Below, in pieces: positions 28,667-39,611 of a stretch of 64,000 nt of DNA; the first letter of the stretch is position 1, and every line of letters starts with the position of its first letter. Made by a program: the position numbers and the translations under genes. The notes under the pieces were generated by a model. The model worked only from the letters and a program-made list of their open reading frames with translations. It had not been told where the DNA came from and did not search any database. This DNA comes from Minutocellus sp. GHC0000111. Its lineage: Eukaryota. Where the stretch lies: contig OZ361256.1 in NCBI GenBank assembly GCA_977018835.1, forward strand, positions 5,456,001 through 5,520,000. Direction: 5' to 3'.

Positions 28667-30340
28667 ATGAAGTTCACTGCCTCCGCCATCGCCCTCGCGG
28701 CCCCTCTCATGGCCAATGGTGCGTTCCATTTTTCTTGGAGATTCATTTATCGAGCTGGTCGAACGAAATGTGGAGGAGGTCTGACGCATGATGGCCAGCC
28801 AAGAAAATACGTCGAATTTCTGAGCTGCATCAGCGATTGCACTGACTCGGAGCAGGTGGAAGATGAGATGCGGCCAAGTGCTTGTTGGAGAATCAACGAA
28901 TTAGTATCTGGTCCAATTGCAGCGGTGCTATTCACTCGAAGCTGTCGTATCTCTGGCCATTTTCGAACTCAGCTGGTTTCGAGCACATCATGTGCTACTT
29001 TTCGACTACTGCAAGGACATATCGTCGTCGGTGATATGCATCCCATTGCGACCGTGATAGATACCATATGAGACCATCCCGAACAACAATGATTCCTAAC
29101 TACATTGATTCTTATATATCTTCCATTCTTCAATTTCTTGCTTGCAGCCTTTGCCCCCGTCCAGAACCTTGGCCTTACCACCAAGGTCGCCGCTCCCGTT
29201 TCGTCGGTCGGACCTGCCGGAACTCACGGTGCCTTCTGCCCCTGCGACGGATGCCTTGCCATTGCCCGCCATCCCGTGAGTTTTACCAACTAGAAGCATG
29301 TGTTGCATGTTTGCATGTTTTACACAAATATCTTTCACACATATTCTAACCCTCTTATCATGTTACTTTTTCCCTATACAAACCCCATGCAGTCCACCTG
29401 CGGCTGCGATGCCTGCGGCTCGACCGCTCTTCGCATGTCGGATGCCACCGCCGAGGTCCCCGCCGAGGTCGAGGCCATGGACGGCATCGCCTCGGACGAG
29501 GAGGCCCACAACGCCGAGCGTCCTGCCCGTTCCTCCATCAGCAAGAAGAAGGGCGGCGCCAAGTCCGGCACTCCCCTCGCTGATCTCGAGATCGGCTCCT
29601 CCGTCGAGGGCACCGTCAAGGCCGTCCAGGCCTACGGTGCCTTCCTCGACATTGGCGCCCAGACCGACGCCCTCCTGCACGTGTCGCGCATCTCCGACGA
29701 CTTCATCTCCAACGTGGAGGACGTCGTCAAGGCCGGCGACAAGATCACCGTCCGCATCGTCAGCGTCGATGCCGACAAGGGACAGATCGCCGTCACTGCC
29801 CGCAGCGAGGAGGCCGAGAAGGCCGCCGCCGATCGTTCCGCCGGTGGCGGAGGACGTCGTCGCAACCGCCCCCAGCGCTCCGGTGGAGACCGCGAGGCCC
29901 AGAAGAAGACCCTGGCGGCTCTTTCCGATGCCGGATACGACGGTGACAAGTTCGTGGAAGGATCCGTTGCCTCCATCCTTGACTTTGGTGCCTTTGTTCG
30001 ATTCGATGTCTCCCAGCTTGCCGAGGGTGTTGAGGGTGAGCTCGATGGTCTGGTCCACATCTCGGCCCTTCAGGCCGGCCGTACCAATGCCGTCACCGAC
30101 GTTGTGTCTGTTGGCGATTCCGTCAAGGTCCGTGTCAAGAACCTCGACGTTGCCGGTGGCAAGGTCGGTCTTTCCATGATCTCCAAGGAGGACGAGCCCG
30201 CCCCCCGGGAGCGCAGGGAGCGCGCCCCCCGCAACCAGCGATGGAGTCCCGATGAGATGGGCGCCGCCGATTGGGCCGACACCATGAAGGACCTCGAACA
30301 GCCGACCTTTGTCAACGGGCCCGTGCTCATCGAACGCTAG
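28667..30340 (+). CDS. Plastid-targeted protein with two S1 RNA-binding domains (PSRP-7/ribosomal S1-like), 3 exons (28667-28718, 29148-29275, 29393-30340)
   Basis: Spliced N-terminus MKFTASAIALAAPLMANA-FAP...THGAFCPCDGC...HPSTCGCDAC.STALRM. S1 motifs YGAFLDIG..DALLHVSRI and FGAFVRF...DGLVHISAL. Confidence 0.88.
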
Positions 30341-30773
30341 ATTTTTGTGGAAGAAGCAATAATATCAAAGCAAGAAATGTAGCAACCACCCAACAAACAA
30401 AAGATACATTAGAATGTGGCAGATTCAATGCAAAGCAGCAATAAGATAACTTCTGTATAATTTTGTCTGATAATTTAAATGGAAATAGCAGTACCATCAG
30501 CTATCAGTCATCAGCTGCGGCGTGATTCAGTGTGCTTGCTTTGTTTGGTACCGGTATTGCAGTCGAAAGTTCGGATACTTTACCGGTACCAGACCATAAA
30601 TCGGTGATGGTGGCTGGGACGCGCGCTGAGAGCGCGGGACCAAAAAGCCCTTCGGTGCCATCCAAGTCAGAGGCTGACGAGCGAACCAAGAGTATCTAAC
30701 TACGTAGAAGCGACTGGATTCTTCCGTTTGTAACCAACCTAACCTTAAATCTTGCAGTATCGCCAGCTCAAAT

Positions 30774-31418
30774 ATGGCGCGCCTTTTCTCATTTATCGCC
30801 ACATCCACTCTCATCTTCCTACTTGCGATCTGCGCCCAAAACCCGGCTACAATTTTTGCGAGTGCGCAAAGTACCGGAGATGATCCATCGGAAGGAAGCA
30901 AGTGCCCGTCCAGTCTCAAGCTCAACCAAGAATTTGGCAGCGAAACAAAGAAGAATACTCGTTGCCTGGCCAACACATCGGGCGTCAAGTTGCTCATACA
31001 TATTCAACGACACTGTGCTATCGACGGCAGTGGCGGCTCCAGCGACAGCTCCGAGTGCACCGAATCACACGCCCTCAACGTCGCCGTCAACGCCATGAAG
31101 GACTACGAGGAGACGCATGGCATGAAACGCGGCAAGGATTATCACATCGCCATTGTCTTGAATGGCGAGGGCGCCATCTTTGGATTGGATCCTGATGCCG
31201 ACGATGCCAACGAGCGATCCACAGAAAATCATTCTCCCGAGGTTGTAAGCAAAGACCTCCTGGATCATGGCGTGTCGATCTATCTATGCCAAAATACCGC
31301 ACGCAGTATGGATATAAAGCTACACCAGCTTATCGATGGGGTCCAATTTGTTACTGCTGGAGTTACTGCCATTGGCGATCTCCAGTTGCAAGGCTATGCT
31401 TTATATACAGCATTGTAA
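30774..31418 (+). CDS. DsrE/DsrF-like family protein with signal peptide
   Basis: HIAIVLNGEG, GVSIYLCQNT (conserved Cys), GVQFVTAGVTAIGDLQLQGYALY. Intronless, hydrophobic N-terminus. Confidence 0.8.
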   Translation: MARLFSFIATSTLIFLLAICAQNPATIFASAQSTGDDPSEGSKCPSSLKLNQEFGSETKKNTRCLANTSGVKLLIHIQRHCAIDGSGGSSDSSECTESHALNVAVNAMKDYEETHGMKRGKDYHIAIVLNGEGAIFGLDPDADDANERSTENHSPEVVSKDLLDHGVSIYLCQNTARSMDIKLHQLIDGVQFVTAGVTAIGDLQLQGYALYTAL

Positions 31419-31697
31419 CTGCAGGCAGGCGCCTCATTTCTGCCTCTGCCGAAGTTCTTGTCGATCTCTATGTGTTGACCCAAATTTGAGTATAAGAATA
31501 GCACCTAAATTAGCGTATGATCTTCTTATCTGTTGATGTACAAAAATATATGCCTTGGCTTTGCAATTATCGCCTTGCTCTCGCTCTGATGAAGGTCTTC
31601 ACTGACACTCATCATTTATGATATCCGACCGATATTCAAATAATGTATTACCGATGGCCCTCTCGATAGCTTCCTTATCGGTATCATTTTTCACCGC

Positions 31698-32504
31698 TTA
31701 TTGGGAAACACCGGCGCAAGTAGCGCATGCGCAGCCAGCAGCGTGGGCCGAGGGGGCACAGGCAGCACATGCGCAGTTGGCGGGGTGGGCAGAAGTACTG
31801 CACGCAGAGCAGGTGCAGAAGGCACCGTGAGTGCTGGCACTGCATGCCGAGCAACCGCAATCATCACCGTGAGACGACATTTTGAGGCTAGTGGAACTGC
31901 ATGATGCGCAAGTGCACGTTGCCGAATGAGAGGCAGTGCACGCCGAGCAGCCGCAGGTGCTGGGATGAGCGGCCGAGGCACATCCAGGGCAAAGGCAGCC
32001 GGCAGCATCATGAGTCGACGAGGTGGCGACCGACTTGCCAGAGGTGGCCGGTCCACAGGTACGGCAAAGGCCATTCGACACCGAGGGTGCAAAAGCTGTG
32101 GTGTGAAGAAAATGCAATTATATAACGGTGTAACGGTGAGAACGATGAACATGATTGTGATCGATCGGACAATGTCCGAGGCTATTGCAAAAAGTCAAGG
32201 AATTGAAACTAGAACACGTCCTCATTTATTGATCCTGCTCATATCTTGTCCAATTCAAACCCATGCAAACGCCAATTAGGAGCAAGATGCTGCGTTCCAC
32301 CATGCATAATACATCGGGAGGAAGAGCCCGCAAGCACTCGTCACAATCACTTCCTGATTGAACCAATTCCTCCTCTTCATGTTGTATCTTTCGTCCGTTC
32401 GAGCCCAACTTCGCCGGCACAAAAAGTGAAGCGAGCCAAATGCGCAACTCACCCGAAACCGAAGCGGCTGAAGCGACGGTGAGGAACGAGGCGGCAACCT
32501 TCAT
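31698..32504 (-). CDS. Plastid-targeted metallothionein-like Cys/His-repeat protein, 149 aa, 2 exons (32504-32453, 32095-31698)
   Basis: Spliced MKVAASFLTVASAASVSA-FAP followed by 7 H-x3/4-C-x-C-x2-C modules; 23 Cys and 7 His. GT-AG intron 32096-32452. Confidence 0.82.
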
Positions 32505-33129
32505 CTTTATGCTATTCAATATCTTCAAACGATACGTAGCAACAACACCAATCTAACAGCGGGCAGAAGTTCCCCAAAGCAAGCGCAAGTGATACGACGT
32601 ACGACGTTGCTTGTTCCGCCGGGCAGTGTGGTAATGGGAATTTTTGTAGTTTTCGTTTAATTTTCATATCTATGAGGGACTGACGTGTTCCCAAATACTG
32701 TCTTCTAAGCGCGGCCGATTTGTCAAGCAGATTTCGTTCGCATTCTTCGTTCGCATTCTTTCGCCTTCTGAACGTTTCCAGCCTTCTGAGAGGCAGTCCA
32801 AAACAAGAGAGATTTTTGAAGGAAGCGAAAAACAGCCACGTCAGAAAACTTCCTTGGAAATTCGAGAGGGAAAAGCCCGCCAAAGCGATCAAGGCCGAAA
32901 CGAAAAAGAGGCAAGGATAAAAAACGAAGTGCTTGGCCAGACACTGGGCAAACCGATCGCGGAGACGATGATGCCAGGCGTTGGATGCATGTACCAGATA
33001 GATAGTATGATAATATGTGTACTCCTAGTTATATTTTGAAGCAAGATGCACAACAATCAGCCATTATTCTCGTGTTCGAGCAGTCAGCACAACACGTTTG
33101 CCCGCCCGCTACGTGTAGTTGTGCCAACG

Positions 33130-34542
33130 ATGGCGAGACCTCCTCATTCTCGACGTCGCCGTACCTCATTTGCTCGTGATAGACAAAATGATCGATTCTC
33201 TCATCTTGCAACGCTTGTAATCGTTCTTGATGAGGAAGAAGTGGAACATCTCGGTTCGAAACTTGGTTGTAAAAACATATCAAGAGTTCGGAAAAGCGTT
33301 GAGAAGATGATTCTCGAGCTCGGCATCAGCGCAAGAAAGGCATTGCGAATGGACCCCAATGCCTTTTACCATCTCCATGATGTTCTCGAGGCTGACATTG
33401 CTGCAAAGTTCAGTTCCCGAAAGGCTGGCGATGCCACTGGGGGTCAACTCGCTCCCAACGGTTTGGTGTCAACCAAGCTTCGGCTAAGTTGCGCCATACG
33501 ATACTTCGCCGGCGCGGCCGTGTACGATCTCATCCTTACTCACGGCATGGGACGATCGACCATATATCAATCCATATGGGGCATCGTAGACGTCATTAAT
33601 CAGAGCGATGATCTTGCACTCAATGCCGACAGTGCACCATTGCCGAGCAGGAAGACATTGCTGCTGGTTTTCTTGAAAAAAGTAGAGTTGGATTCGACAA
33701 TGTTATTGGTGCTATTGATGCAATGCTTGTTACAATTGATTTGCCCGATAAAGGCAGCTGCAGAGACATTGGAGTAGGTCAGAAGAATTTCCACTGCTCT
33801 AGGAAAGACAAGTATGGACTTGCACTACTTGCTACATGCGATAACGAGTGTCGATTTCGATGGGCCGATGTGTCCCAGCCTGGAAGATCATCGGACTACT
33901 TGGCATTCACCACATCGGAGTTACCGGCAGCGCTTGAAGATGGGCGAAATGGTGGCGATGGCGCCACGGAATCGGTTGTTGGTTGGCGGAGAAATGGCTC
34001 TTCGAGTGTGCGTGCAAAACCAGGATACATTGGTTGGTGATAATGCCTTCGTGAAGACTCATTGGATGGCTGTTCCATTTCCTGGAATAGTGGAATCACC
34101 AAAAGACGACTATAATTTCTTCCTCTCTCAGCTTCGCATAACAATCGAAAGAGCATTTGGAATTCTCATTCATCGCTGGGGAATACTTCGTCGACCCCTC
34201 GGTTGCCCCGTTCGAAAGGTAGGTGCACTCACAATGGCTCTCTTACGGTTGCACAACTTTTGCATCGACAACAATGGCAGGAACGTGCCAGGAAGCACGA
34301 CGAGAGACATTGCAAGAATTCATGAAAGGGCGGCAAGAAGGGTTAGAGGTCAGTCTGGTGAGGTGGTGGAGCTGGATCGCCATGGCCGGCCTGCCCAACT
34401 GCTTGGCCATGGCCATCACTTCACCGACCTTCCCAGAGGACGGCGGCCGGTTGTCGTCGGCGAGGACGAGATGACGCCGATGGATCTGATGGTCGAGGAG
34501 GTAGCGCAAAGCGGCCTTCGTCGACCAACTCGTAGGAACTAA
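33130..34542 (+). pseudogene. Harbinger/HARBI1-type DDE transposase with two frameshifts
   Basis: LRLSCAIRYFAG, IGAIDA (D), GRSSDYLAF, LVGDNAF (D), YNFFLSQLRITIERAFGIL (E), LHNFCI. Frames switch near 33640 and 34030. Confidence 0.9.
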
Positions 34543-34976
34543 TTTTAGATAAATTATTGATGTAAAAACAGATTGAAAATGATTTAGAAAATAGAACAAT
34601 AAAGTAGTAATAGAGCTTGTGGAAATCTACATGTACCGGCACATTGATATCCAACAGGTTATGAGCATGTATTTTATAAATTTAGCTTTGCCGTCATTTT
34701 TCAGCAATGATGGAATTGTGATCGTATGGGATGGGAGGATTATTCGGCATTGCAGCTCGAGTCCGTCGGTGGGTGAGAAAAATCGTGTGAACGGAATATT
34801 TTGGGGAACAACGGAACGATAAGCCTAGAATATGCTTTTAGGTGAGAACGGACTTTATGTTTCATTATTAATTTGTTGAGTTTAGCTACCGGTGCTCTAC
34901 ATGTAGATCAATAAACCAATTAGTTTTAGTAATATTCATGCAGGTAGAAAGGTGTGTCGCAAAAAATACAAGCAAA

Positions 34977-37536
34977 TCAACTTTCCATGTCGCCATCATT
35001 CATGCTTTCGTCCAACATGTCAACTTCATTGCTGGCTGTTGCATTGTCAGCATTGTCTTCGTCATTATCTTCGGGAAGGAGCATGTATTTCACATCATAC
35101 TCCTCGAAACCAATGGATTCAGGTTCGAGGATACCTTTGTCGACCAGATTGTCAAGAATGCGTTTCAGATCAGCACGATCCCTCATTTGGCAGAGTTCCT
35201 CACGAAGTTCAAAGAAGCCGCGTTCCTGAGTGAGATTTCCAGCGGGAGGGCAATGTGACTTGATGAACTCCAACGCCTTGTACCGCTTGGCATCGTCAGA
35301 TAGGGTGGACCAAGGTCCAGTCGACGACGTTCCCGTCATCGCTGTCTCGGCTGCCGACGTGGCTTGATGGCGTCTCTCTTCTTCTGCTTCCTCGGCCCTT
35401 TCTTCCTCGGACACCTGCTCCTGATATTTCTTTATATCTTCCTTCACCGTTTTCACCTGGGCGTCTGCATCTTTCCAATACATCCTGGCCATCTCCTTCC
35501 CACGAAGAATATCGCGTGCGTCATTGGCTTCCTCGGAATCGTCACGGGCGTCGGGACTCTCTATCCCTTGGGAAGCGTTAGTTGCTTCGATGAATTTACT
35601 GTACCTGTAGGAAAGCAATTAAAAACAGATTGTGAGATCATTCATTCAAATAGAGATGAAAAGAACACAGCAGAGCAAATGTACTTACGAATCCATCGAC
35701 AATCTCTTAGCTTGGTCGAGGCGATCATTTAGTCGAGCCATGTGTTCATCGCGATATTCTTTCTTCCGCAGCTTTTGTTCGCTCCTTCTCATCACAATCT
35801 CCTCTTCCATAAGAGCTACCGCTCTGTCCGATGCCTTGCGCTTGCCCCCCCCCCTTTCCGCCATTGCGGCCATTGCGGGCGGTCGACGAGGTCTTGATTA
35901 GGTGATTGAAAAGGAAACATTGCAAAATTGATTGAGATAAGTAAGTGTTAAGCTGTTCAACCAAAATATCACACATCAATGCACATAGGTACTCACTTCG
36001 GGCACGCTCGTCATTGTAGCAGCAGCATTGCGATCAAGGCACTGCTTCACTTCCTCTAGCATATTTCCATCTAGAGAGAGAATGTACTTCAGATAATAAA
36101 CTACAATCATGTCGAGTTGGCTGCCGGGTCCGTTGACAAAAGTGACGAATTCGTTGTCATCGACAAATTGCAAATCGATGTTGCCGTTGCTGTCCGTGGG
36201 GACAATGTTCCCATCCCCATTGCCACTTCTCTTGAAGTTGGCTTGAAGCTGCACATGTAATTGGAATGGAGTAGTTGCACACTTATGGGTTAGAACATAA
36301 CATGGCCAGAATAATTGAAATGATGCGCATTAAACAATACTGACTTACCGTAGTGACATTGGAACTGACTTTTGTGAGGGTATTTTTCATGTCCTTCTCT
36401 GTTGCTGGTCTGTTGGAAGATGGCGGTGGCAGATCATTCGCTTTGTTGAAGGGTTCGGGTAAATCAGGCATCTCAATCGACTGAATTGACACATCACTGT
36501 TGCACATTTGAGCGGCCTTCTCGTAGAAATTGAGAGGGCGGTTGGGGGAGTTACGATCGTCAAGCTCCCTGGCAGTTGCGGAGTTGTTTCGGTTCACAAG
36601 ATCATCACGGAGAGAGGGGTGAAGCATCACATGGAAGCGTCGGAGTACAGCAAATGTGCTGGCATGGGCGACTTGGCTGGCATCTTCCTCAAGCTTTGAG
36701 CAGAGATTTGTGAGCAGGGCGTTGACAACGGGACGCTCATTGGGAACAATGATCTCGCTAAGATATTTTTCCAGCTCCGATTTGGTCCAATTGGCACACT
36801 TCGGCATCTGCCTTGGCTCGTCGGAAGCATCATTAAGGAGGACGACGCGGCGCAATACCTCGCGTTTCATCACGATCGGATTCGACGACGGAACTCCTTT
36901 CTTCATTCCATACTTTTTGCCCTTCTTTCCGACAAAGTTCTGGAGGGTTTCGTGTTCAAGAGGATCGACAGCATATTCGGTACCGACAGTCATGGCAATA
37001 AGAACAGCTGGTTCGTCCAAGGCCTTATCATACCATTTCTGGGGCCGAAGTTTGTCAGCATCAATACTGAAGATAGTATACAAATCATTGGCCAAAGTTT
37101 GTGATGGGCGAGCGGGGGAAGACTGGGCTGGCCTGGAACGTGATGAACCACTCAAGCTGTTGTTGCTGGAACTACTGTTGGAAAGGGAACTGGGAAGATG
37201 GTTGCGGCATCGAGTTCGGTTACTGTCGGGGTTGATGTCCGACCATCCATTCATACACTCGACGCAAAAGGCGATGCCGCAGATGCGGTCGAGGTGATGG
37301 GGGCCTGGGCGGTAAGCAACAGTACTTTGTGGCACGATGAAGCGGCAGATGTTCTCAGTGAGGGTAGAAGTAGAGCACATGCTACATCGGACAGGTTCAA
37401 ACTTGTTGACTGAATAGTTGAATGAAAGGATGGTCAAACCATCCTCGTCGGCATCGGATGCGGCGGTAGCACCGCCCGCTGCTGCGGAAGCGGAAGCGGC
37501 GGCCGCCTCTGACGCCTCTGTCCGCGTGTTTGCCAT
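34977..37536 (-). CDS. Second Harbinger gene (DNA-binding partner), ~4 exons, N-terminal Cys-rich finger
   Basis: Lies inside the TIRs, convergent with the transposase. Exons approx. 37536-36349, 36248-35997, ~35899-35689, ~35605-34977 with GT-AG boundaries. CSMC...CGIAFCVEC...CRNH; FKRSGNGDG. Confidence 0.7.
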
Positions 37537-38130
37537 GACGGCGGCGGCCTCTGGTAGCAGACGCACAAGATACGGTGCACAGAAGGCCGGGCAAGGATGC
37601 AAAGCCCGATGCCGGGCGGGCCCGAGATAAATGGCTCAACCTTTTGAAGGAGAGCGTGATGGGCGGACTCCGTCGATAGATACCGCCCATTTTCACTGCG
37701 GAAAGAGGAGCTTGGCTCTTTCTCCGCCCCTCTCAAAGACGTTTGTCGACCTTGGAGCGAACGGCATTTCATCGAAGACCTCCGGGTGCTTTTGGAAAAA
37801 CATCGAAGTTGATCAACGTCTTGAAGTACACAAAACCATTACCTACTTGCCTCAAATTCGCACTTCCCTCAAAAACTCTCTTGTTTGGACCGCCTCTGAA
37901 CGTTTCCAGCAGGTGATAACTTTCCATGACGTCATCATTAACACCAAAAGAAAGAGCCTTACGACGAATGACTCATTCGAAACTGGTGCCGTCACTTTGG
38001 TTTCGATGCGCTGGTTCTGCCGCCAGCATGGCCATCCAACCAAATCATGGCGACAGCGCATCAGTCAATCACAACGTTTATAATTCTCATCGGAATCCAC
38101 CAATATGCAACGCAGATTATCAGCGTAACC

Positions 38131-39611
38131 ATGACCAGAGCAAGACTAGTTGTATCGGCGTTCGCCCTCGGCACTCAGGGATGCAAGGGTAAGTTGACAT
38201 GTGATAGAAGGTTTCGATACCGCGCGTCTGTCATCATGGAGAGAACGCTTGTTCTTCCGACCAAATATTCATTGATGCGGATCATTCCAATGGTACAGTC
38301 ATGGGGTGGAATGAGTCAGAGAAGAGTGTAACGGTGTACGCTCGATGGCTGCAGACACATACTTCCAACTGGCCATTCCAAAAACGAGCACAAGATGTGC
38401 TTGAATACTACCTGCCTGCGGGCTGGACCACGATGCGTTCGGCTCGGATATTGTTTGCGGATTGCACGTCGGCAATCAATCAGCAACATGTCGGCAACTG
38501 GCAATCGATGACAGTATTAGATTCCTGTCATCTTTATAACTAGGATCATTTCTTCTTCGCCCTTTCATTTTTATTCCTTCCAGGCTTCTCGACAATCCCG
38601 ATGACTGCAAACCCACCTGCCGCCGCCCAGCTGGCTTCAATTGAGACATCTCATCAGCAATATCGCACTGCACTTCATTCGACTGTCGAGGCGGCAGAAG
38701 TCGAGGTTGGCAACTTTTCTCCTGCGGAACCCGCCAAGAAGAGCAAGAACAAGAACAAGCGAAGCAACAGCAACAATAATGCCAACAAGAAGCGGCGGCC
38801 GAAATCCAAAGTCAATGGTTCTACGAAAGCAAAAGCTTCTGCTAACAAGAACAAGTCCAAAAAGAATGGCTCGTCGTCATCCTCTGGCAGCAATAAGAAG
38901 AAGCGCAATCCTCGTCCGACGCTCCAACCCTTGTCCGCGCTCAAGCTTGGATCCAAGATTGATGGCGTGGTGTGCGGCATCTCGGAATTCGGAGCCTTTG
39001 TCAAGACGCGGTATCAGATTAAGGCAAAGGACGACGACAAGTCCAAGCAATCGGGATATGCCCTCCTCCACAAGTCTCAGATCCAAGACGAGAAAGTGGA
39101 GGATGTGTCGCAAGTGCTGCGCGTTGGCGATCACATCAAGAACGCCAGGGTGACGAGCATCAACTACGCCAAAGGGGAAGTCTCGATTAGTCTGAGAAAG
39201 CCCAGGCCCCAGCGTCGGAAGCTGGACGAAATTCAGGTTGGCAAGGAGTACGACGGGAAGGTCTGCAATGTAACACCTTACGGCTGCTTTGTCGATGTAG
39301 GGGCGAAGAAAAATGCCTTGCTTCACATCTCGAGAATCACGCAGGAAAAGGTCCAAAATGTTCGAGATTACGTCAACGAGGGCGACTGGGTGACGGTCCA
39401 CATCATCGGCAATGATAAGAGTGGGTTGGCCTGCAGCATGCTGGATAAGACGGCCGACGAATACCTCAACAAGCGTCAAAGGCAGCAGAAGCGAAAGGCC
39501 GAGAATCAAAAGGCGGTCGGCGAAGCATCTGCCGTCATGGAGAAGAGCGAGCTCGCCGCCTTCGAAGAGGCCATCAAGGAGCTCGAGATGGCGTTCTCGA
39601 GCAAGAAGTAA
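38131..39611 (+). CDS. Second S1-domain protein, probably plastid-targeted, 2 exons (38131-38188, 38584-39611)
   Basis: Spliced MTRARLVVSAFALGTQGCKG-FST. S1 motifs FGAFVKT...ALLHKSQI and YGCFVDVG..NALLHISRI. An alternative in-frame ATG lies at 38047. Confidence 0.85.

What the first reader, a model, noticed from the sequence alone, without database searches (positions are those of the whole stretch)
31698..32504. Plastid-targeted metallothionein-like protein made of H-x3-C-x-C-x2-C modules
Seen: after splicing, a 149-aa protein with signal peptide + SA-FAP and seven modules (HDAAGCLCPGC, HPSTCGCSAC, HSATCTCASC, HGDDCGCSAC, HGAFCTCSAC, HPANCACAAC, HAAGCACATC) joined by Ser/Ala/Thr linkers, with no recognisable folded domain. 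A typical diatom transit-peptide end (STSLKM-S) lies in the middle, so three modules fall in the presequence and four in a ~60-aa mature peptide. Known: ASA-FAP marks diatom plastid import; His+3Cys is a standard tetrahedral Zn/Cd site; classical metallothioneins are mostly cytosolic and use other spacings. Inference: a stromal metal buffer or chaperone of a family I do not recognise as described. It is small and split by an intron, so gene callers could easily miss it.
Basis: partly seen in the sequence, partly recalled or inferred. Interest (0 to 1): 0.88.

Follow-up and report, generated by a model that had tools for sequence, protein, structure and literature searches.

The report
Zinc-knuckle arrays inside plastid presequences
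A spliced, conserved diatom gene encodes a small protein made almost only of repeated histidine-plus-three-cysteine units that likely bind zinc inside the chloroplast, and the same units sit in the predicted address tags of several other algal chloroplast proteins (shown cut off in one), which would be an undescribed way of handling metal in this organelle.

Summary
The gene is real. The 357-nt intron is joined in RNA contigs of two studies, and against one orthologue all 30 His/Cys codons are kept while synonymous sites are near saturation. Six modules fit H-x3-C-x-C-x2-C; the first has x4. No Pfam, PDB or Atlas family fits.

The larger result is that the module array is a mobile algal element. 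It forms stand-alone stroma-type and lumen-type proteins, and it sits in the presequences of a two-S1-domain protein (encoded about 1.4 kb away in this window), HopJ-like proteins, a twin-arginine family and a theta-carbonic-anhydrase-like protein. Published N-terminomics put the mature, mostly acetylated start of the Thalassiosira pseudonana S1 protein at Ser90, directly behind three modules, so modules are cut off in vivo. The window protein has the same geometry (Met90/Ser91), conserved in 7 of 7 close relatives.

Best reading: a plastid-imported polyprotein whose cut yields a 59-residue, four-site zinc-buffer peptide and a 71-residue module-bearing presequence that is itself under purifying selection. 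Metal binding, localisation and function are untested. Ten literature searches found no description.

The parts
32453..32504 (-). exon 1: start codon and predicted ER signal peptide (17 codons plus 1 base)
   Evidence: covered by spliced RNA contigs; signal peptide judged by eye
32096..32452 (-). 357-nt GT..AG intron, phase 1, inside the Ala codon before the +1 Phe
   Evidence: joint 32095/32453 in 4 of 4 RNA runs laid, 2 studies; same position in orthologue L074
31698..32095 (-). exon 2: predicted transit peptide, seven modules, stop codon
31881..32093 (-). predicted 71-aa transit peptide holding one CxxC (32066-32055) and modules 1-3
   Evidence: 1 Asp/Glu, 3 Lys/Arg, 34% Ser+Thr; dN 0.07, dS 1.24 against L074
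31980..32012 (-). module 1, H-x4-C-x-C-x2-C
31938..31967 (-). module 2; DNA 82% like part of the neighbouring S1 gene's second module over 22 nt
   Evidence: I3
31899..31928 (-). module 3
31878..31886 (-). Leu88-Lys89-Met90: predicted stromal processing site (cut before Met, Met then removed)
   Evidence: fits the rule of PMC3774753; present in 7 of 7 window-type sequences
31701..31877 (-). predicted 59-aa mature peptide, modules 4-7 (31871-31842, 31829-31800, 31787-31758, 31745-31716); 12 Cys, 4 His
   Evidence: module 5 region 73% like the neighbouring S1 gene's first module over 56 nt (I1)
31518..32645 (-). span of the single spliced RNA contig (771 nt) in runs X6 and X7
   Evidence: table 8; contigs do not fix true ends or strand
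28667..30340 (+). neighbouring two-S1-domain plastid-type gene (S1-A), predicted exons 28667-28718, 29148-29275, 29393-30340, 375 aa, with two modules (29225-29254; 29270-29275 plus 29393-29416) before its Leu-Arg-Met-Ser site
   Evidence: exon model from GT..AG ends and intronless homologues, not confirmed by reads
38544..39611 (+). second S1-domain gene (S1-B), the other conserved neighbour

Best explanation
The gene encodes a protein predicted to be imported into the diatom plastid and likely cut by the stromal processing peptidase into a 59-residue peptide with four likely zinc sites and a 71-residue presequence with three more, which together would act as a metallothionein-like zinc buffer inside the organelle. 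Shown: transcript, splicing, module pattern, purifying selection on both halves, and removal of a three-module presequence from the related S1 protein in T. pseudonana. Inferred: import; the cut in this protein; one Zn(II) per module in a His-Cys3 knuckle (His first, each module self-contained); survival of the metal-loaded excised presequence against presequence protease while the apo form is degraded. On this reading the fused versions are polyproteins that co-deliver buffer peptide with an abundant plastid or lumen protein. This particular gene likely arose from, or exchanged sequence with, the 5' part of the adjacent S1-A gene.
For: Splice joint in 2 studies. Against L074: 30 of 30 His/Cys kept with 13 synonymous changes; presequence half dN 0.07 and dS 1.24, as constrained as the S1-A C-terminus (0.10 and 0.91). 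In 50 hand-picked algal-type sequences, 235 of 237 CxCxxC cores have His 4-5 residues before; the first core does in 50 of 50, and 1 of 50 has a His after the last core, which fixes the register (partly circular, as the set was chosen for modules). The same spacing binds Zn in UHRF1 (PDB 3zvz) and is a putative Zn site in TRPC5 (PMC7683545 passages). Other stand-alone members place all modules behind a canonical transit-peptide end (P0017, P0018, P0025, P0026) or behind an RR...AxA lumen signal (P0029, P0030), so the bare array is itself a mature product. T. pseudonana JGI 21235 starts at Ser90 in 6 acetylated and 3 dimethylated spectra, directly behind three modules. Tandem modules also occur in the insert of a bacterial CobW-family protein (L172) and before a theta-CA/LCIB domain (L097). 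Meets the size, Cys and aromatic criteria for metallothioneins.
Against: No metal-binding, localisation or metal-response data for any member. Supplement searches of a diatom zinc proteomics paper gave nothing (4 small files). No module-bearing N-terminal peptide was found in the T. pseudonana tables for 12 short search strings, so no free array peptide has been seen. Transit peptides are normally degraded (PMC3774753) and are 12-42 aa long, not 71. A buffer does not explain why modules sit so consistently inside cleaved presequences of unrelated proteins. dN/dS rests on one sequence pair. The cleavage evidence is from a different protein and species, and 38% of N-termini in that study map beyond position 75, many from other proteolysis.
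Confidence: 0.5

Rival explanations
1. Metal ferry: modules load zinc in the ER or periplastid space and carry it as tiny folded knuckles through the plastid envelopes, and by the Tat route into the thylakoid lumen. Cleavage and degradation of the presequence release the metal, and the stand-alone gene is a dedicated carrier.
For: Modules lie in presequences before the processing site in S1-A, HopJ-like and theta-CA-like precursors, and between the RR/hydrophobic stretch and the AxA-like site in 7 twin-arginine precursors. Tat carries folded cargo (recalled). A lumenal theta-CA is known in diatoms (PMC9010474 passage). Removal in vivo is shown for one protein. It needs no survival of the cut peptide.
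Against: Import across the periplastid membrane is thought to need unfolding (recalled). Most fused partners (S1, HopJ-like) are not known zinc proteins. No data on where loading happens.
Confidence: 0.17
2. Metal-gated presequence: zinc occupancy folds the modules and so slows or permits import or processing of the attached protein, tying the supply of a plastid S1-domain RNA-binding protein and others to metal status. The stand-alone protein is a decoy or titrator.
For: Modules are kept before the S1-A processing site in all 11 S1-A loci the motif scan returned (selected by the motif), and in both model diatoms. The presequence is under purifying selection. The stand-alone gene stays linked to S1-A in L074.
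Against: Module number varies from 2 to 7 on the same partner, which suits capacity more than a switch. Stand-alone members with all modules in the mature part have nothing to gate.
Confidence: 0.13
3. The ligand is not zinc: Cu(I) or Cd detoxification, a 3Cys-1His iron-sulfur carrier, or a thiol redox buffer.
For: Cys-rich peptides bind soft metals broadly, and 3Cys-1His also ligates [2Fe-2S] in NEET proteins (recalled). The plastid is iron-sulfur-rich and redox-active.
Against: The exact spacing has a zinc precedent. An invariant His and an odd Cys count per module argue against disulfides and against Cys-only Cu clusters (inference). The CDGSH pattern is absent and Pfam gives no hit.
Confidence: 0.16
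4. A functionless by-product: a local duplicate of the S1-A presequence with expanded repeats.
For: Adjacent to S1-A, shares module DNA with it, and its N-half scores best, outside its own orthologues, against two S1-A presequences (z 4.9 each). L038 and L081 have S1-A beside S1-B with no such gene between.
Against: Transcribed and spliced; purifying selection with synonymous sites near saturation; relatives down to 61-62% identity keep all seven modules and the site.
Confidence: 0.04

Closest known systems
Metallothioneins (15 families as reviewed in PMC7216689, section 5 read)
   Same: Small, Cys-rich (15% of the precursor, 20% of the predicted mature peptide), aromatic-poor, no predicted fold without metal.
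   Different: Described as cytosolic, whereas this has a bipartite plastid-type signal and an internal processing site. One His per three Cys in fixed, spaced modules suggests mononuclear sites, not clusters. No Pfam metallothionein hit for the window protein; one distant hit, P0014, scored below the cut-off of PF12749. I could not see the one predicted T. pseudonana metallothionein (XP_002296843) named in that review.
HXXXCXCXXC zinc site of the UHRF1 PHD finger (PDB 3zvz) and TRPC channels (PMC7683545, passages)
   Same: Identical ligand spacing, His first.
   Different: Single site embedded in a large folded protein; Zn density was not resolved in TRPC5. No sequence relationship was found, so it is a chemical precedent only.
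Diatom bipartite plastid presequences (ASAFAP type; PMC4329603, PMC3774753)
   Same: Signal peptide, Phe at +1, basic and acid-poor transit peptide, Leu at -2 and Met/Ser after the cut, acidic residues just downstream.
   Different: About 70 residues rather than 12-42, filled with His-Cys3 modules and under purifying selection. The N-terminomics study examined only positions 16-75, so this class fell outside its list.
PETs polyprotein (PSRP-7 plus EF-Ts; PMC12156993 passages)
   Same: A plastid precursor with two S1 domains that is likely cut into separate products.
   Different: The co-product here would be a metal-binding peptide from the presequence. S1-A orthology to PSRP-7 is not established: it scores no better than other S1 proteins.
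ZCRP-A and other COG0523/CobW zinc chaperones (PMC9010474 passages)
   Same: Proposed zinc trafficking in diatoms; one bacterial CobW protein carries two such modules in its insert (L172).
   Different: GTPase fold, no plastid presequence; unrelated to this protein.

Membership tests
Metallothionein | at most 300 aa, under 10% aromatic, 15-35% Cys | tested here: met
   149 aa, 3 aromatic, 23 Cys; criteria
Metallothionein | cytosolic location | tested here: not met
   bipartite plastid-type signal in the sequence and in relatives; location itself is predicted, not observed
Metallothionein | match to a described metallothionein family profile | tested here: not met
   0 Pfam families at E up to 1, 0 NCBIfam
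Metallothionein | binds several metal ions in thiolate clusters | not testable with these tools
   needs ICP-MS, native MS, Cd or Co spectroscopy
Metallothionein | no stable fold without metal | tested here: inconclusive
   AlphaFold2 mean pLDDT 47.5, pTM 0.19 on a 15-row alignment; low confidence may reflect the shallow alignment
Metallothionein | induced by metal excess | not testable with these tools
   contig depth cannot show expression level; nothing found
ASAFAP-type plastid precursor | signal peptide followed by Phe at +1 | tested here: met
   18-residue Ala/Val-rich leader then Phe-Ala-Pro; by eye, no SignalP
ASAFAP-type plastid precursor | transit peptide basic, acid-poor, Ser/Thr-rich, ending Leu-x|Met/Ala/Ser | tested here: met
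   7 of 7 window-type sequences: 0-1 Asp/Glu, 3-5 Lys/Arg, 30-34% Ser+Thr
ASAFAP-type plastid precursor | transit peptide 12-42 residues | tested here: not met
   69-71 residues against Table S7; the S1-A orthologue shows such a long one is processed
ASAFAP-type plastid precursor | observed import into the plastid | not testable with these tools
   needs GFP fusion or organelle proteomics
UHRF1/TRPC-type His-Cys3 zinc site | H-x3-C-x-C-x2-C spacing | tested here: met
   6 of 7 modules exact, 1 with x4
UHRF1/TRPC-type His-Cys3 zinc site | homology to the surrounding PHD or TRP domain | tested here: not met
   no PDB sequence below E 0.02; no Pfam
CDGSH/NEET iron-sulfur proteins (pattern recalled) | CDGSH signature with His last | tested here: not met
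   His-first register in 50 of 50 arrays; no Pfam hit

The most novel reading that the evidence does not exclude
Algae have turned plastid presequences into metal-handling devices. A mobile His-Cys3 zinc-knuckle array is built into transit peptides and thylakoid signals, and it either ferries zinc across the four plastid membranes and into the lumen or gates import by metal status before the processing peptidases cut it off. This gene is the payload-free carrier, with knuckles on both sides of the cut.
Probability: 0.3. Interest if true: 0.93.

Novelty: new variant of a known kind. Interest (0 to 1): 0.78.

Why it matters
Zinc is scarce in surface oceans and diatom plastids need it for carbonic anhydrases (PMC9010474 passages), yet the review I read lists metallothioneins as cytosolic and almost unknown in diatoms (PMC7216689). 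An organelle-targeted, module-built metal-binding peptide family would supply a candidate plastid zinc buffer or carrier. Transit peptides are treated as disposable address labels; conserved metal sites inside a presequence that is shown to be removed in vivo would give them a second job. The idea is directly testable in P. tricornutum and T. pseudonana, whose S1-A precursors (Phatr2a_17981; JGI 21235, catalogued as Thaps3a_2351) carry the modules.

Tried and rejected
No whole genome is held for this window, so copy number elsewhere in the genome is unknown.

Family searches for the window protein were blank: Pfam, NCBIfam, ESM Atlas by features (also blank for P0025, whose structure matches were all under TM 0.5), PDB by profile (best E 0.02, a short zinc-finger overlap), Foldseek on the low-confidence model (0 matches). 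The search for longer relatives gave one mis-started copy of the same gene and missed the fused forms that the DNA motif scan later found.

Other splice pairs were enumerated; only the GT at 32452 with the AG ending at 32096 is seen in RNA contigs. The overlapping 167-aa frame (31691-32194) was rejected as a shadow because conservation follows the His/Cys frame.

The two-module DNA pattern is not specific by itself: most prokaryote and viral matches look like off-frame reads of repeats. I do not count them as family.

The model-diatom catalogues in PMC4329603 showed no stand-alone or twin-arginine member for the 17 distinct strings tried, but those files are cut when stored, so this is no evidence of absence. 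A search by gene number was useless. PSRP-7 orthology of S1-A was considered and left open. The size limit of presequence protease was not found in the review passages and is recalled only.

Four look-ups of earlier scan findings returned nothing. No complex prediction was sent: no protein-protein binding is claimed. A transit-peptide scoring matrix was not built; the published rule was applied as a pattern. The S1-A exon model has no read support.

Full report
Observation. On the minus strand an ATG at 32504 opens a 52-base exon, a GT..AG intron spans 32452-32096, and exon 2 runs to a stop at 31700-31698, giving 149 residues. Thirteen runs were listed as holding the stretch or part of it. I laid 4 of them, all RNA contigs, and all 4 show the 357-base joint (at most 3 samples, 2 studies). 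No DNA run was laid, but the window itself holds the intron. The protein has 23 Cys, 7 His and 3 aromatic residues. Six modules are H-x3-C-x-C-x2-C and the first is H-x4. The window holds 8 exact matches against a simulated mean of 0.3. The organism is inferred to be a diatom from the presequence type and from the likeness of the neighbour gene to T. pseudonana and P. tricornutum proteins.

Selection. L074 holds an orthologue with the intron at the same place. All 30 His/Cys codons are kept, 13 with synonymous changes. The presequence half has dN 0.07 and dS 1.24. The C-half has pN 0.21 and saturated pS 0.79. The S1-A C-terminus, for comparison, has 0.10 and 0.91. This is one pair only.

No known family. 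Pfam, NCBIfam, the Atlas, PDB sequences and Foldseek gave nothing usable; AlphaFold2 gave mean pLDDT 47.5.

Relatives. Protein searches returned 4, 17, 1 and 24 hits. A two-module DNA pattern with a 3-residue linker returned 119 metagenome loci (19 of 64 parts scanned, about 410 estimated), 75 prokaryote loci and 13 viral loci. By eye, 30 of the 119 are of the algal type: 11 S1-A, 15 stand-alone (several near-duplicates), 3 twin-arginine and 1 theta-CA-like. A composition filter flags 32, of which 28 are among my 30. None of the 75 prokaryote or 13 viral loci shows such a presequence by eye; most look like off-frame repeats, though real tandem modules occur in a CobW insert, an Hsp90 linker and a BspA-type surface protein. 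The only source-named stand-alone member is from Pelagophyceae sp. CCMP2097. L097 looks green-algal from its N-terminus (inference); other taxa are not determined.

Architectures. I tabulated 50 sequences chosen for holding modules. I left out P0007, P0010, P0014, P0020, P0022 and P0028 (mis-called, duplicate or unrelated) and 11 algal-type loci that were duplicates or split by introns. The 50 fall into: stand-alone with an internal processing site (7, the window type); other stand-alone proteins (15), several with all modules behind a canonical transit-peptide end; modules before Leu-x-Met-like sites ahead of two S1 domains (10), a HopJ-like start (4; Pfam match below cut-off) or an LCIB/theta-CA domain (1); modules between an RR/hydrophobic stretch and an AxA-like site of an unnamed family (7); and RR-like or degenerate forms with little or nothing after the modules (6), two with modules behind the AxA. 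Linkers are mostly 3-4 residues and the spacer positions are small residues. His precedes 235 of 237 cores and follows the last core in 1 of 50.

The neighbour. The S1-domain gene at 28667-30340 carries two modules before Leu-Arg-Met-Ser, and its first intron is in the same codon position as this gene's (model not read-confirmed). The two genes share module DNA (56 nt at 73%, 22 nt at 82%). Outside its orthologues, the N-half scores best against two S1-A presequences (z 4.9 against shuffles that keep His and Cys fixed; most other S1-A rows are under 2). L074 has S1-B, this gene and S1-A in the same order and orientation without the DsrE-like gene and the transposon. L038 and L081 have S1-A beside S1-B with nothing between. 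Local origin from, or exchange with, the S1-A 5' end is likely but not shown.

Cleavage. PMC3774753 (passages; Table S7 whole; supplement searches) gives the diatom rule: Leu at -2, hydroxylated residues before it, Met/Ala/Ser after, then acidic residues; length 12-42. The window type fits except for length in 7 of 7 sequences, with acidic residues just after the site; several of the 7 are close relatives. Its Table S5 lists protein 21235 starting at position 90 in 6 acetylated and 3 dimethylated spectra. The supplement of PMC4329603 (passages; supplement searches; files cut when stored) shows a protein with that same peptide, Thaps3a_2351, with three modules directly upstream. By my hand count, removing an apparently retained intron from that model puts the Ser at 90. 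The P. tricornutum orthologue has two modules and is called plastid, high confidence. So a module-bearing presequence is removed in vivo from S1-A; the authors looked only at positions 16-75. Against: 38% of their termini lie beyond 75, an earlier first cut or an uncut fraction is not excluded, and no module-bearing peptide was found.

Chemistry. A motif search found the spacing in PMC7683545 and its preprint. The passages read say it coordinates Zn in UHRF1 and is a putative Zn site in TRPC5, where the ion was not resolved. One Zn per module is therefore inference by precedent.

Mechanism. Most likely (0.5) a plastid polyprotein yields metallothionein-like zinc-buffer peptides. Rivals are a zinc ferry in presequences (0.17), another ligand or a redox role (0.16), a metal-gated presequence (0.13) and a by-product (0.04). 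That presequence protease spares folded peptides and that Tat moves folded cargo are recalled; PMC12731061 passages say only that M16 proteases favour unfolded substrates.

Known or new. It works like a metallothionein in composition but fails the location and profile tests, so I do not file it as one. Ten searches of the open-access library (listings with abstract starts only, except the papers named) found no description of the family or of such presequences. Subscription papers are not covered, and I could not see XP_002296843. PMC7216689: passages and section 5. PMC9010474: passages and a blank supplement search. PMC12156993: passages. Earlier scan findings: none.

Verdict. A real gene of an apparently undescribed algal family, more interesting for where its modules recur than for the protein alone. 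Interest 0.78; new variant of a known kind, with a 0.3 chance of a new kind of presequence function.

Noticed in passing
window 32096-32452: In runs X1 and X5, RNA contigs also cover the intron at a depth like the joint's while the outer flanks have no cover: a weak hint of intron retention (which would give an early stop), though DNA or pre-mRNA is not excluded.
   Followed up: no
window 30774-31418 (+): Intronless DsrE/DsrF-like gene with a signal-peptide-like start between S1-A and the finding; absent from that position in L074, so a likely later insertion.
   Followed up: partly
window 33040-34542 (+): DDE_Tnp_4 (Harbinger-like) transposase in two reading frames just upstream of the gene; absent in L074.
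   Followed up: partly
L038 723-3523; L081 2-2433; L074; window 28667-39611: Two different S1-domain genes (28% identical) stay linked in several algal contigs in changing orientations.
   Followed up: partly
L067 2420-3748: An S1-A precursor with seven modules in a 3 + processing-like site + 4 layout, the same layout as the window protein, followed by the S1 domains.
   Followed up: partly
P0016, P0032, P0035, P0036, L035, L070, L117: Unnamed twin-arginine precursor family with 2-6 modules inside the predicted thylakoid signal and a conserved C-terminal body without a Pfam match.
   Followed up: partly
L097 1-540 (-): LCIB/theta-carbonic-anhydrase-like precursor, apparently green-algal, with two modules in its predicted transit peptide.
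   Followed up: partly
L172, L139, L141, L133, L159: Bacterial tandem modules, mostly acidic, in a CobW insert, an Hsp90 linker, a BspA-type surface protein and an unnamed Leucobacter protein; probably convergent.
   Followed up: partly
L025, L031, L003, L006: Low-GC contigs, some listed as giant-virus assemblies, encode proteins with 2-3 tandem modules and no Pfam match where tested (L025, L003).
   Followed up: no
PMC4329603 Table S7, Thaps3a_2351: The catalogue model appears to retain the first intron and is therefore called 'not plastid'; a likely gene-model error.
   Followed up: partly
window 30543-30594: 25-bp inverted repeat (76%) between S1-A and the DsrE-like gene.
   Followed up: no
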